A DNA stretch of 64,000 bases from the NCBI GenBank assembly GCA_000004695.1, contig CM000153.2, positions 1,440,001 to 1,504,000 on the forward strand. Reading direction: 5' to 3'. Positions 50,933 through 53,188 of this stretch are shown in pieces; position 1 is the first letter of the stretch, and each line of letters opens with the position of its first letter. The DNA comes from Dictyostelium discoideum (lineage: Eukaryota). The notes beneath the pieces were generated by a model that was not told where the DNA came from, ran no database searches, and was given only the letters and a program-made list of their open reading frames with translations. The position numbers and the translations under genes were made by a program.

Positions 50933-51262
50933 TGAAACACAACAATTTTTGTGAGATTTCATTTTTTGTGGATTATATATTCTGTGGAAAAAAAAAAAAA
51001 AAAAAATAAGGAAATATTTTTTTTTTTTTTTTTTTAATTTTTTTTTATTTATTTTTTTTTTTTATTTATTTTTTTTTTATTTCTATTTTTAATTTTTTTT
51101 TTATTTTTTATTTTTTTTCCACAAATAGTGTTTGGTCATGTGAAAAAAAAAAAAAAAAAAGAATTATTGATTTTTGAATTTCTCTATACATTAAATATTA
51201 TTGAGTGATACTTGGAATAATAAATTGATTATCCTTTACATTAATAATATGTGAATTTATAA
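50933..51262. repeat. Direct repeat copy 1 (about 330 bp), paired with 52839..53188
   Basis: Both copies start with tgaaacacaacaatttttgtgagatttcattttttgtg. Both end with a 100-nt perfectly identical block, gaattattgatttttgaatttctctatacattaaatattattgagtgatacttggaataataaattgattatcctttacattaataatatgtgaatttataa, at 51161-51262 and 53087-53188. Their internal poly-A/T tracts differ by indels. Confidence 0.8.
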
Positions 51263-51660
51263 AAAAAAAAATAAAGGAAAAAGAAATATTAGTTTAAAAT
51301 TTTAATCAATCATATAATCTTATCATTTTTTATTTATCTTTATCCTATTAAAAGAATTTTTTTCATGGTGAATATTAGAACTAATTAATAAAAATAAATA
51401 TATAAAAAAAAAACTAAAAAAAAAAAAAAATAGAAAGAAAAAAAAAACTAAAAATAAAAAAAAAATTTTTAAACAAAAGAATCTTTTTTTTTTTTTTTTT
51501 TTTTCAAAAAAAGTTTCCAGTTTATTATGTTCTCATTTTGAATTTGAATCTAGAACTATATATTAAAACACATTTTCAATCAACATAAATTTGTTATTGC
51601 TGATGTTAATCAAATTACAAATTTAGTTGGTTATTTAGAACCAATTGGAAAAAGCAATTG

Positions 51661-51735
51661 TTGTTGTTGTTGTTGTTGTTGTTGTTGTTGTTGTTGTTGT
51701 TGTTGTTGTTGTTGTTGTTGTTGTTGTTGTTGTTG
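51661..51735. repeat. (TTG)n microsatellite
   Basis: About 25 perfect TTG units. A second (GTT)n tract lies at 50279-50339. Both flank or lie inside the Fanzor-like element. Confidence 0.9.
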
Positions 51736-52173
51736 GTAAACCACTAACAGAATTTACAACAACAGTTGTTCAAACTCAAACTTCAAAATCTGAACCTGTT
51801 ACAAACTATTATTTACTTTGTGACATTTGGTACCACAAGATCAAGATTTTAGAAGAAAATTACAAACTGGTAAGTTTCTTTTTTTTTTAATAAAGATTTT
51901 GAATACTAAGAATCTTGAAGTTTTAAATAATGATAATGATAATAATAATAATAATAATTAATAATAATAATAATAATAATAATAATAATAATAATAATAA
52001 TAATAATAATAATAATAATAATAATAATAATAATAATAAAAATAATAATAATAAAAATAATACTAATCTATAAATAATAAATAAAAAAAATACTAATTTA
52101 TTATAAAAATTTTCTTTTTTTTTTTTTTTTTATAAATTAAATTGGTGATACATCTAATGAAATTTATGAAAGT

Positions 52174-52566
52174 TTGAAGAATCAATTAAAATATAGATAT
52201 GCGGATGGTAATATAAAAAAAGATTATTTAAATTTTATTTATTCAAGAGATTATTGTTATCAAGATTTGATTAGAGATAAAAAATCAAATGCTTCAGAAA
52301 AACAATTCAAAAGGAATTTAATTGATTTTTTACATAGAAATCACAACGAAGAGATTCAAATCTTGAAATCAAAAATCAATAAAATCAATGATAAAGATAT
52401 CAAATCGTTCTTTCAATTTGTTATAGTTTATTTTGGTTCTGCTCATTTTTCACATAGCTCTGGAGGTTGTCAAACTGGTTATGGGACAAAAAGAATCATT
52501 AAAATTTGGGAAGATTTAGGTTGTAGAGTTATATTGGTAGATGAAGTTTATACTTCACAGGTATGA
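52174..52566 (+). pseudogene. TnpB/Fanzor-like (IS605 OrfB-type, RuvC-II/III region) gene fragment, truncated after the RuvC-III YTSQ motif
   Basis: The ORF ends ...SAHFSHSSGGCQTGYGTKRIIKIWEDLGCRVILVDEVYTSQV followed by a stop and GTATGA. The pattern h.(Y/W)(K/E).....G..V..VD(P/E).YTSQ is the TnpB/Cas12 RuvC-III entry motif (ISDra2: LEYKAERAGGQVIRVDPRYTSQ). The expected RuvC-II Glu looks replaced (FVIVYFGSAHF). A possible upstream exon, 51645..51870 (...NYYLLCDIWYHKIKILEENYKL, GTAAGT donor), follows a (TTG)25 tract, but I could not join it in frame. Confidence 0.5.
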
Positions 52567-52653
52567 ATAATTATATATATATTTAATAATATAAAAATGA
52601 AAATAATAATAATAATAAATAATAATAATAATAAATAATAATAAATAATAATT

Positions 52654-52828
52654 TTTAATGGTAAAGTTGAGTTGTTCCCTTTATGTATATGTTAAATGCA
52701 CCAACATTATCACGATTTTTAATTCCATGAATTTTGCAACGTTTTAATTTGTAACATTTATTGAAACACTCGAGTTTTTCATTTGGTCCAACGGGACATT
52801 TTACACCTTTTACTTGCGAAAAATATTT
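52654..52828 (-). pseudogene. TnpB/Fanzor-like C-terminal Zn-ribbon plus RuvC-III tail fragment, inverted relative to the 52174..52566 fragment and carrying a frameshift
   Basis: Minus-strand frame 52800..52654 reads KCPVGPNEKLECFNKCYKLKRCKIHGIKNRDNVGAFNIYIKGTTQLYH*. That matches the TnpB C-terminus (C..CG...R.F.C..CG...DRDxNAAxNI), with the catalytic first Asp replaced by Asn. Immediately upstream, shifted by one base within a T5 run (plus 52798-52802), the minus strand reads *KYFSQVKGVK. This repeats the Y(T/F)SQV junction found at the end of the plus-strand fragment. It is too short (49 codons) to appear in the ORF track. Confidence 0.5.
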
Positions 52829-52838
52829 TTAGTTTTAT

Positions 52839-53188
52839 TGAAACACAACAATTTTTGTGAGATTTCATTTTTTGTGTAAAAGAATTTGATTATATACTCC
52901 GTGAAAAAAAAAAAAATAAAAAAAAATAAAAAATAAAAAAAATAAAAAAATAAAGAAAAGAAGGAAGTCAAATAAGGATATTTTTTTTTTTTTTTTTTTA
53001 ATTTTTTTTTTATTTATTTTTTTTTTTATTTCTATTTTTAATTTTTTTTTTTTTTTTTAATGTTTAATTTCATATGAAAAAAAAAAAAAAAAAAAGAATT
53101 ATTGATTTTTGAATTTCTCTATACATTAAATATTATTGAGTGATACTTGGAATAATAAATTGATTATCCTTTACATTAATAATATGTG
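52839..53188. repeat. Direct repeat copy 2 (about 350 bp), paired with 50933..51262
   Basis: See copy 1. Copy 2 starts about 20 bp beyond the inverted Zn-ribbon fragment, and the RapGAP gene begins about 100 bp after it ends. Confidence 0.8.

What the first reader, a model, noticed from the sequence alone, without database searches (positions are those of the whole stretch)
50933..53188. About 340-bp direct repeats bracket the Fanzor-like relic (1.9-kb periodicity)
Copy 1 (50933-51262) and copy 2 (52839-53188) share identical 38-bp starts and a 100-bp perfectly identical block near their ends. Their interior A/T homopolymers differ by indels. They flank about 1.58 kb that contains (TTG)25, the TnpB-like fragments and (AAT)n tracts. 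The arrangement (DR, internal segment, DR) could be a composite or solo-like mobile element, a tandem segmental duplication caught mid-decay, or the ends of a non-autonomous element that captured the nuclease gene. I see no purine-rich tract or primer-binding-like sequence at the internal edges, which argues against a retroelement with long terminal repeats.
Basis: seen in the sequence. Interest (0 to 1): 0.55.

Follow-up and report, generated by a model that had tools for sequence, protein, structure and literature searches.

The report
Duplicated host DNA flanking a patchwork insertion
The two ~340-bp repeats are not transposon ends but two copies of a conserved stretch of ordinary Dictyostelium intergenic DNA, doubled when a 1.6-kb patchwork holding a dead TnpB/Fanzor-type nuclease gene was inserted in the AX4 lineage; a sister lineage carries an independent insertion of the same relic family that duplicated a whole U1 snRNA gene in the same way.

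Summary
The repeat is real. R1 is 50932-51262 and R2 is 52838-53197, with 39 nt identical at the start and 120 nt identical at the end; shuffles expect 0 matches.

The window is D. discoideum AX4. In six other assemblies (two wild D. discoideum, two D. cf. discoideum, D. citrinum, D. firmibasis) the same Cu-ATPase/RapGAP intergenic region is about 1.9 kb shorter. Each holds exactly one copy of R and none of the internal segment. So R is ancestral host DNA, and AX4 carries a 1,575-nt insert flanked by a 350-380-nt duplication of its target.

The insert is a patchwork of an AT-rich spacer, a frameshifted ZNF277-like gene fragment that includes its splice donor, a TnpB/Fanzor-like middle piece (+), and that gene's C-terminal piece inverted (-).

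A paralogous relic in D. cf. discoideum (L008) has the same architecture at another locus. There a roughly 1.15-1.24-kb insert is flanked by a 0.36-0.46-kb duplication containing a complete U1 snRNA gene. Six other assemblies have the empty site with one U1 gene.

The two inserts share no termini. My best reading is a one-step break-repair or replication template-switch scar. A mobility mechanism specific to this element family, with very long target duplications, is not excluded.

The parts
50911..50923 (.). 13-mer AACGATATTTTTC, which is the reverse complement of GAAAAATATCGTT found on the + strand at the orthologous spot in other strains. It marks a small inversion plus deletions at a palindrome (ATCGTTGG..CCAACGAT), immediately left of the duplicated segment.
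   Evidence: pattern on the - strand in the window, on the + strand in L003 and L005, 12-mer on the + strand in L002; sequences.
50913..51262 (+). R1, the left copy of the duplicated host segment. The strict repeat is 50932-51262; similarity to the R2 flank starts at ATATTTTT (50913). This is the more derived copy, with deletions and a diverged interior.
   Evidence: (R1 derived at 78 alignment columns against 17 for R2).
51263..51504 (.). Insert segment S1: AT-rich DNA of unknown origin. It starts with A9 and ends with T21.
   Evidence: It has no match in any fetched locus.
51505..51890 (+). Insert segment S2: pseudogene fragment of a ZNF277-like C2H2 zinc-finger gene (aa 80-175 of D. dimigraforme ACTA71_001926). 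It has several frameshifts and stops, a (TTG)26 expansion at 51658-51735, and the exon-intron junction (GTAAGT) is retained.
   Evidence: tblastn in two frames with stops; 91-92% nt identity to L001 10243-10515. The locus of the intact gene is not syntenic.
51891..52069 (.). Low-complexity stretch including (AAT)26 at 51960-52037. It may be an expanded Asn-codon run of the relic's upstream exon.
52070..52618 (+). Insert segment S3: middle part of a degenerate TnpB/Fanzor-like gene. It contains the ORF 52141-52563 ending in the RuvC-II-like motif VILVDEVYTSQ, followed by an intron start. It is annotated in AX4 as part of DDB_G0284143.
   Evidence: P0135 98%, P0136 86%, P0137 28% with E 2.8e-4; 79-89% nt identity to L008 10149-10499.
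52655..52830 (-). Insert segment S4: C-terminal part of the same nuclease gene (Zn-ribbon remnant plus the RuvC-III-like motif NRDNVGAFNI, then a stop codon). It is inverted relative to S3 and runs right up to the junction with R2.
   Evidence: the S3+S4 concatenate hits PF07282 at E 4.6e-4, below the gathering cut-off; 92% nt identity to L008 10573-10735, which is collinear with the middle part there.
52819..53197 (+). R2, the right copy of the duplicated host segment. The strict repeat is 52838-53197. It keeps the ancestral interior and lies 88 nt downstream of the RapGAP stop codon.
53198..53284 (.). Poly-T tract that follows the single R copy in every other assembly. It is the undisturbed right flank, and the RapGAP gene (minus strand) ends at 53285.

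Best explanation
SHOWN. R is a pre-existing, single-copy piece of host intergenic DNA that is conserved across species. It lies upstream of the Cu-ATPase gene and just downstream of the RapGAP gene. In the lineage leading to AX4, 1,575 nt of DNA foreign to this locus was placed there, and about 350-380 nt of the target ended up on both sides of it. The insert is a mosaic of at least four segments: unknown AT-rich DNA, a DNA-level copy of part of a ZNF277-like gene, a middle piece of a dead TnpB/Fanzor-type gene, and that gene's C-terminal piece in inverted orientation. An independent, lineage-specific event of the same architecture exists in D. cf. discoideum. That event involves the same relic family and duplicated a complete U1 snRNA gene unit.

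INFERRED. The structure is the scar of a one-step break-repair or replication accident, not of a transposase acting on defined ends. One route is that a stalled or broken fork (or both ends of a break) primed synthesis on ectopic templates through short A/T-rich or palindromic microhomologies. Synthesis switched template several times, once onto the opposite strand of the relic, and then re-entered the original locus about 0.35-0.4 kb behind the point of departure, so the intervening host segment was copied twice. This is the FoSTeS/MMBIR type of event. The related route is extension of both ends followed by end joining. Only events that duplicate the whole functional island between A/T tracts may survive selection in this compact genome, which would explain the similar sizes. 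The repeats themselves do nothing. R2 probably keeps the original regulatory role, while R1 is decaying.

The confidence given is for the whole statement. The shown part alone (R is duplicated host target, not element ends) I hold at about 0.9. The template-switch mechanism alone I hold at about 0.45-0.5.
For: One R copy, no X, and an intergenic region about 1.9 kb shorter are seen in six assemblies, including two outgroup species. R1 and R2 share the AX4-specific state GAATTTATAA, where all D. discoideum-group comparators have GAATTGATA.

The insert is a patchwork. The ZNF277-like fragment retains its splice donor and comes from a non-syntenic gene. The relic's middle piece (+) and C-terminal piece (-) are collinear in the paralogue L008, so AX4 carries a fold-back inversion.

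The X/R2 junction lies inside the relic at the palindromic motif GAAAAATATTTTT, and 8 nt (ATATTTTT) are shared with the local flank. A 13-nt inversion with deletions sits at a palindrome right next to the duplication boundary, in AX4 only.

X and X' share no termini; only the relic segments are common to both.

The second event is L008. Its direct repeats are 94% identical, each contains a U1 gene, and the site is empty with one U1 gene in six assemblies.

Tandem duplications with templated insertions are a documented outcome of aberrant break repair (titles and abstracts of PMC8654963 and PMC5120786, listed).
Against: Two of the three known copies of this rare relic family sit in such structures. 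A generic repair accident does not predict that. The two duplications are of similar size, roughly 0.35-0.46 kb, which also hints at a defined mechanism.

The donor sequences are unknown, so microhomology could be judged at only one junction, and 8 nt of A/T is weak evidence in a genome of about 20% GC.

R1 is identical to R2 at both ends but strongly diverged in the interior. A single recent duplication followed by uniform neutral decay does not explain this. It requires gene conversion, hypermutable A/T tracts or error-prone synthesis.

I could not search a complete Dictyostelium genome for further copies of R or X.
Confidence: 0.55

Rival explanations
1. Element-specific mobility with very long target-site duplications. 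The relic belongs to a non-autonomous mobile DNA family that is inserted by some machinery acting in trans. That machinery opens the target with nicks about 0.35-0.45 kb apart on opposite strands, perhaps two nucleosome repeats, and fill-in then duplicates the target.
For: There are two independent, lineage-specific insertions of the same rare family at unrelated loci. Both have host duplications of similar length and the relic in the same orientation relative to the more derived left copy. The family is rare: only three predicted proteins, each a singleton in its own 90%-identity cluster. Chance co-occurrence is therefore unattractive.
Against: X and X' share no terminal sequences, and only the internal relic segments are homologous. 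The right end of X is a breakpoint inside the inverted relic. No intact nuclease or transposase of this family was found in 1.8 billion representative proteins. The third copy (L016) has no flanking direct repeats. No known transposase makes target duplications longer than about 20 bp (my own knowledge). The length of the L008 duplication is fuzzy, at 0.36-0.46 kb.
Confidence: 0.2
2. Homology-driven transfer. R (like U1) would be a dispersed repeat. A donor locus or an extrachromosomal circle carrying an R-like copy next to X recombined with the single R at this locus, by Campbell-type or ends-in integration or by ectopic gene conversion. The repeat length would then reflect the extent of homology rather than a staggered break.
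For: The L008 repeat is a U1 snRNA gene; U1 genes are multi-copy in many eukaryotes (my own knowledge; copy number in Dictyostelium was not examined). In both events the left copy carries nearly all the differences while the right copy looks ancestral, as expected if the left copy was imported. R1's interior is far more diverged than its ends.
Against: The core of the R tail occurs only at the orthologous position in six assemblies. It is found nowhere else in about 200 kb of other fetched loci or in the rest of the window. Both L008 repeat copies share an 18-nt promoter-region insertion that is absent from the orthologues, which fits a local duplication. This model also only moves the origin of an R-X-R structure to another locus.
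Confidence: 0.12
3. R-X-R is ancestral, and all other lineages lost X plus one R by recombination between the repeats.
For: Direct repeats 1.9 kb apart can recombine, and the single R copies elsewhere would look like solo products.
Against: This needs independent, precise losses in at least six assemblies, including D. citrinum and D. firmibasis. R1 and R2 share an AX4-specific substitution. None of the single copies shows an R1-type interior. The same argument would have to hold for the L008 locus as well.
Confidence: 0.03
4. Assembly artefact in the AX4 reference: a chimeric join or a falsely expanded repeat.
For: The region is extremely AT-rich with long homopolymers. The AX4 reference is an older assembly than the 2025 comparators (my own knowledge). 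I could not retrieve this locus from the independent AX2-214 assembly.
Against: The two copies differ at many positions, and unique sequence lies between them. The same architecture is seen at another locus in an independent de novo Nanopore plus Illumina assembly (PMC12745789).
Confidence: 0.03
5. The repeats are the terminal repeats of a mobile element: the long terminal repeats (LTRs) of a retroelement, or the arms of a composite transposon that carries the nuclease gene.
For: The layout is repeat, internal segment, repeat, with a nuclease-like ORF inside.
Against: The repeat is present at the empty site in all comparators, contiguous with both flanks. It has two blocks conserved across species. 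There is no reverse transcriptase, integrase or transposase. The paralogous relic is flanked by a completely different repeat, a U1 gene.
Confidence: 0.02

Closest known systems
Tandem duplications with templated or ectopic insertions at the junction (FoSTeS/MMBIR complex rearrangements; end joining after extension of both ends)
   Same: A local host segment is duplicated in direct orientation. The junction is filled with several segments copied from elsewhere, one of them inverted. There is a short microhomology at the one junction that could be judged, and a small inversion at a nearby palindrome.
   Different: The event is fixed in the germline of a haploid amoeba. The insert (1.15-1.6 kb) is longer than the duplication (0.35-0.46 kb). 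The same rare repeat family is involved in two independent events. Donor loci and most junction microhomologies are unknown.
Target-site duplications of transposable elements
   Same: Direct repeats of host DNA flank an insertion that is absent from the empty site in relatives.
   Different: The repeats are 20 to 100 times longer than any transposase-generated duplication I know of (2-20 bp). The two inserts share no termini, and no transposase is present. Very long duplications are otherwise known mainly as rare aberrant outcomes of LINE-1 integration (my own knowledge). Here there is no poly(A) tail and introns are retained.
Fanzor1/TnpB elements of dictyostelids (Bao and Jurka 2013, PMC3627910: Sola2-type elements in D. 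fasciculatum and P. pallidum, with 12-21-bp terminal inverted repeats and 4-bp AT-rich duplications)
   Same: The internal ORF pieces carry TnpB-type RuvC-II, Zn-ribbon and RuvC-III remnants and have spliceosomal-type introns.
   Different: The gene is truncated to its C-terminal half, broken and partly inverted. There are no terminal inverted repeats, no 4-bp duplication and no Sola2 transposase. D. discoideum is not among the species listed in that paper.
Insertion-type (Campbell, ends-in) homologous integration
   Same: It produces exactly this layout: homology region, insert, homology region.
   Different: It needs a donor molecule that already carries R. No second R-like sequence was found in the DNA available here.

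Membership tests
TnpB/Fanzor (RNA-guided RuvC nuclease) - internal ORF pieces | RuvC-II motif (..DExYTSQ.C) followed by a Zn-ribbon and the RuvC-III motif (..RD.NAA.NI), recognised by the Pfam PF07282 / TnpB models | tested here: inconclusive
   The motifs are visible (VILVDEVYTSQ; CPVG..C..C..C; NRDNVGAFNI). The S3+S4 concatenate scores 20.7 bits against a cut-off of 26.3. The relative P0137 scores 29.1 bits and passes. A family profile hits only Cas12f/TnpB chains in the PDB, at E 0.012. NCBIfam gives weak TnpB and Cas12f2 hits.
TnpB/Fanzor (RNA-guided RuvC nuclease) - internal ORF pieces | Complete protein: N-terminal WED/REC part, RuvC-I aspartate, one continuous reading frame | tested here: not met
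   Only about 190 aa of the C-terminal half are present. The two pieces lie on opposite strands. Upstream is low complexity and an unrelated gene fragment.
TnpB/Fanzor (RNA-guided RuvC nuclease) - internal ORF pieces | Guide RNA (omega/fRNA) encoded at the 3' end, next to the element's right end | not testable with these tools
   No Rfam family matches within 50000-53400. The 3' end of the gene is inverted and abuts R2.
Fanzor1-bearing DNA transposon (Sola2 type in dictyostelids) | Terminal inverted repeats, a 4-bp AT-rich target duplication, and termini shared between copies | tested here: not met
   X and X' share only internal relic segments. The flanking duplications are 350-460 nt of host DNA.
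LTR retroelement / solo LTR | The terminal repeats belong to the element and are absent from the empty site | tested here: not met
   R is present once at the empty site in six assemblies.
Classical transposon target-site duplication | Host-derived direct repeat flanking an insertion that is absent from orthologous sites | tested here: met
   for AX4; for L008.
Classical transposon target-site duplication | Fixed, short length (2-20 bp) set by the transposase | tested here: not met
   The copies are 350 and 379 nt in AX4, and about 0.36-0.46 kb in L008 with a fuzzy left edge.
Replication/repair template-switch rearrangement (FoSTeS/MMBIR type) | Local duplication plus an insertion made of several segments of different origin, including inverted ones | tested here: met
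   There are four segments, one of them inverted relative to its collinear state in L008.
Replication/repair template-switch rearrangement (FoSTeS/MMBIR type) | Microhomology at every junction between donor and acceptor templates | tested here: inconclusive
   Only the X/R2 junction could be judged. It shows 8 nt (ATATTTTT) within a palindromic motif. The donor loci for the other junctions are not available.
   There are two copies in the window. Each of six orthologous loci has one copy, and there are none in ten other loci or in JGI metagenome contigs. No complete Dictyostelium genome could be searched.

The most novel reading that the evidence does not exclude
DNA of this TnpB/Fanzor-relic family is, or recently was, mobilised in the D. 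discoideum species complex by a mechanism that duplicates about 0.35-0.45 kb of target DNA. That is long enough to duplicate whole small genes (a U1 snRNA gene) or regulatory islands. It would be an insertion mode with target duplications one to two orders of magnitude longer than any known transposase produces, and without defined element termini.
Probability: 0.2. Interest if true: 0.8.

Novelty: new variant of a known kind. Interest (0 to 1): 0.58.

Why it matters
This result corrects a tempting misreading: repeats around a nuclease gene suggest a mobile element with terminal repeats. The orthologous empty sites show the opposite, that the repeats are host DNA.

It indicates that the AX4 gene model DDB_G0284143 is built on a broken TnpB/Fanzor relic inside a lineage-specific insertion. 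TnpB/Fanzor-derived sequence therefore exists in D. discoideum, a species not listed among Fanzor carriers in Bao and Jurka 2013, and it has been moved recently in at least two lineages.

The second case shows that this kind of event can duplicate a complete, promoter-bearing small RNA gene (U1). That is a concrete route to gene and regulatory-element duplication in a very compact, AT-rich genome.

If further polymorphic copies show the same 0.35-0.45-kb flanking duplications, this would be a new insertion mechanism worth experimental study.

Tried and rejected
- **Is R an RNA gene?** R has no Rfam match at E <= 1, and the whole window has none at gathering score. Single-sequence folding gives z-scores of 0.2 to 1.1. 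An alignment of six species and strains shows no compensatory pairs. R is better described as conserved non-coding sequence.
- **Chance repeat?** Rejected by shuffles.
- **RuvC-I motif upstream of (TTG)n?** My first guess was that 'KFVIADVNQ' is the RuvC-I motif. That is wrong: the stretch is a ZNF277-like gene fragment.
- **Synteny of the ZNF277-like gene with the window?** None.
- **Retro-copy origin of X?** Rejected. There is no 3' poly(A), and introns or splice donors are retained.
- **Shared termini or inverted repeats between X and X'?** None.
- **Third family copy (L016).** It has no flanking direct repeats.
- **Relatives in other collections.** None in viral contigs and none in metagenome contigs. 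The R-tail core is absent from metagenome contigs.
- **The AX4/AX2 locus through CLYBL or RapGAP proteins.** No gene is on record, so I could not test whether the independent AX2-214 assembly has the insertion.
- **Concatenated S3+S4 protein.** The middle piece alone was used instead.
- **First two BLAST runs.** Low-complexity hits swamped them, and one script timed out.
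Full report
**1. The observation**

The region is extremely AT-rich (about 17-24% GC) and full of homopolymers, so most hits from the repeat finder are low complexity.
- A 39-nt block occurs exactly twice (50932-50970 and 52838-52876).
- A 120-nt block occurs exactly twice (51143-51262 and 53078-53197; family D18).
- Dinucleotide-preserving shuffles of the window expect 0 matches.
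- Between these blocks the two copies differ by indels in A/T runs, an 11-nt indel, a roughly 45-nt indel and a diverged patch. The global alignment has 289 matches, 47 mismatches and 57 gap columns.
- The internal segment X is 51263-52837 (1575 nt).

**2. Organism and context**

A complete ORF in the window is identical to D. discoideum AX4 citrate-lyase-beta-like protein Q54Q74. The neighbouring gene is RapGAP Q54Q75. The repeats lie between the 5' end of a Cu-transporting P-type ATPase gene (minus strand, ending near 50134) and the stop codon of the RapGAP gene (minus strand, 53285).

**3. What lies between the repeats**

- 51505-51890 is not nuclease-related. It matches aa 80-175 of a C2H2 zinc-finger (PF12756, ZNF277-like) protein of D. 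dimigraforme.
  - The match is spread over two reading frames with internal stops.
  - It is 91-92% identical at the DNA level.
  - (TTG)26 is inserted where D. dimigraforme has CAATTTATTGGT.
  - Similarity continues across the splice donor into the intron.
  - The intact gene's locus is not syntenic with the window.
  - It is therefore a DNA-level copy of a gene fragment.
- 52141-52563 (+) is an ORF ending in VILVDEVYTSQ.
- On the opposite strand, 52830 down to 52663 encodes CPVGPNEKLECFNKCYKLKRCKIHGIKNRDNVGAFNIYIKG followed by a stop.
- Joined, the two pieces hit Pfam PF07282 (Cas12f1-like TNB domain) at E 4.6e-4, below the curated cut-off.
- An exhaustive HMMER search with the middle piece found only three proteins among 1.8 billion representatives:
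  - the AX4 gene model DDB_G0284143;
  - ACTFIY_002032 of D. cf. discoideum (86% identity);
  - ACTFIZ_008151 (28% identity, E 2.8e-4).
  - Each of the three is a singleton in its own cluster at 90% identity.
- ACTFIZ_008151 passes the PF07282 cut-off.
- A profile of the three sequences hits only Cas12f/TnpB chains in the PDB (E 0.012).
- The label 'TnpB/Fanzor-like relic' is therefore reasonable for 52070-52830. It is only the C-terminal half of such a protein, and it is broken.

**4. The decisive comparison**

Through the CLYBL and RapGAP proteins I fetched the orthologous locus from six other assemblies:
- two wild D. discoideum (L003, L005);
- two D. cf. discoideum (L002, L004);
- D. citrinum (L006);
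- D. firmibasis (L007).

At least the five wild D. discoideum-complex assemblies (L002-L006) look like the de novo Nanopore plus Illumina assemblies of PMC12745789; I inferred this from the accession series and species names and did not check it, and L007 (D. firmibasis) comes from a different accession series.

Gene order is the same in all six, but the ATPase-RapGAP spacer is 1.1-1.27 kb, against 3.15 kb in AX4.
- Each assembly has exactly one copy of the start block and one of the tail block, contiguous with the same left and right flanks as in AX4.
- None contains any part of X.
- R is therefore ancestral host DNA. Two of its blocks are conserved as far as D. firmibasis.
- AX4 carries an insertion of X together with a duplication of its target.
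- R1 and R2 share an AX4-specific state (GAATTTATAA, where the D. discoideum-group comparators have GAATTGATA). The duplication is therefore younger than the split from the other strains.
- R2 keeps the ancestral interior. R1 is derived at 78 alignment columns, against 17 for R2.
- The alternative, that R-X-R is ancestral and was lost elsewhere, needs many independent precise deletions and is rejected.

**5. Junctions**

- The right end of X is homologous, in reverse orientation, to the paralogous relic up to the motif GAAAAATATTTTT.
- From ATATTTTT onward, the left flanks of R1 and R2 resemble each other. The duplicated segment is therefore 50913-51262 (350 nt) and 52819-53197 (379 nt), with an 8-nt A/T microhomology at the junction.
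- Immediately left of R1, AX4 alone has the 13-mer GAAAAATATCGTT in inverted orientation, plus small deletions, at a palindrome that is intact in other strains.

**6. A second, independent case**

The locus of ACTFIY_002032 (L008, identical to L015) lies between a RagA gene and a 545-aa gene.
- There the relic's middle and C-terminal parts are collinear on one strand. This shows that the AX4 copy carries a fold-back inversion.
- The L008 relic is itself flanked by direct repeats that are 94% identical and spaced 1620 nt apart.
- Each repeat contains a full U1 snRNA gene (Rfam RF00003; 85.9 and 81.6 bits against a cut-off of 69.5).
- Six other assemblies have a spacer about 1.5 kb shorter at this site, with a single copy of that sequence and a single U1 gene.
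- Again the right copy looks ancestral and the left copy carries the substitutions.
- The right edge of the duplication is sharp (ACC|AGGAA). The left edge fades into an A-run, so the duplicated length is 0.36-0.46 kb.
- X and X' share only the relic segments and no termini.
- The third family member (L016) has no flanking repeats.

**7. Interpretation**

Shown: the repeats are duplicated target DNA, not element ends, and the insert is a mosaic.

Inferred: the event was a single break-repair or replication accident with serial template switches (FoSTeS/MMBIR type, or extension of both ends followed by end joining). Five features support this:
- the mosaic composition of the insert;
- the inverted segment;
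- the palindromic or microhomologous junction;
- the neighbouring micro-inversion;
- the lack of defined termini.

Selection in a compact genome may favour events that duplicate a whole functional island, so that both neighbouring genes keep their regulatory context.

Two observations do not fit this reading comfortably. The same rare relic family recurs in two independent events, and the two duplications are of similar size. I therefore keep an element-specific mechanism with very long target duplications as a live rival (0.2), and homology-driven transfer from an R-bearing donor as another (0.12). Neither can be settled without searching complete Dictyostelium genomes, which these tools do not allow.

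**8. Novelty**

Tandem duplications with inserted sequence, and target duplications as such, are both known. What is new is their recurrent association with a TnpB/Fanzor relic in the D. discoideum complex, the length of the duplications, and the duplication of a U1 gene. D. discoideum is not among the Fanzor-bearing species listed by Bao and Jurka (PMC3627910). I rate this a new variant of a known kind, of moderate to good interest.

Noticed in passing
L008 9413-9574 and 11033-11194 (D. cf. discoideum, GCA_054859205.1 contig JBTAPH010000031.1): Two complete U1 snRNA genes, each with about 165 nt of upstream sequence, flank the paralogous nuclease relic. Six other assemblies have one U1 gene at this site. 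This is a lineage-specific duplication of a spliceosomal RNA gene.
   Followed up: yes
window 50360-50374 plus 52195-52566: The AX4 gene model DDB_G0284143 (Q54Q76, 127 aa) joins a 5-codon exon (MLLCQ) upstream of R1 to the relic ORF through a 1.8-kb 'intron' that spans R1 and most of X. It is a singleton protein and is probably an annotation artefact built on a pseudogene.
   Followed up: partly
window 50911-50923: A 13-mer is inverted relative to three other D. discoideum-group assemblies (two wild D. discoideum, one D. cf. discoideum), at a palindrome (ATCGTTGG..CCAACGAT). It looks like a quasi-palindrome template-switch mutation, right beside the duplication boundary.
   Followed up: partly
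window 52847-52872 and 53110-53190 (and the same blocks in R1): Two blocks of R are conserved across D. discoideum, D. citrinum and D. firmibasis, although the surrounding spacer is barely alignable. They have no Rfam match and no structure signal. They are candidate cis-regulatory sequences (RapGAP 3' region or ATPase upstream region).
   Followed up: partly
window 51505-51890; L001 10001-12777: The N-terminal exon of the ZNF277-like gene has a predicted protein only in D. dimigraforme. No D. discoideum, D. citrinum or D. firmibasis protein matched it in 5.8 billion sequences. The intact gene may be unannotated or lost in D. discoideum, and in D. dimigraforme it is split into two gene calls.
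   Followed up: no
window 51658-51735 and 50277-50339: There are two long (TTG)n tracts, of 26 and 21 units. The first arose inside the pseudogene fragment at a CAATTTATTGGT site. The second lies upstream of the ATPase gene and is much shorter in strain L003.
   Followed up: no
L016 10001-11132 (D. cf. discoideum, GCA_054859235.1): ACTFIZ_008151 is a 211-aa intron-containing ORF that passes the Pfam cut-off for the Cas12f1-like TNB domain. It is a third, divergent member of the relic family, also only the C-terminal half, and it has no flanking direct repeats.
   Followed up: partly
L012 about 7621-7633, L013 about 7521-7533, L014 about 7510-7522, compared with L008 9413-9425: At this locus the 5' end of U1 reads ATACTTACCAG in three D. 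discoideum assemblies, but the canonical ATACTTACCTG in both D. cf. discoideum copies. The difference lies in the region that pairs with 5' splice sites.
   Followed up: no
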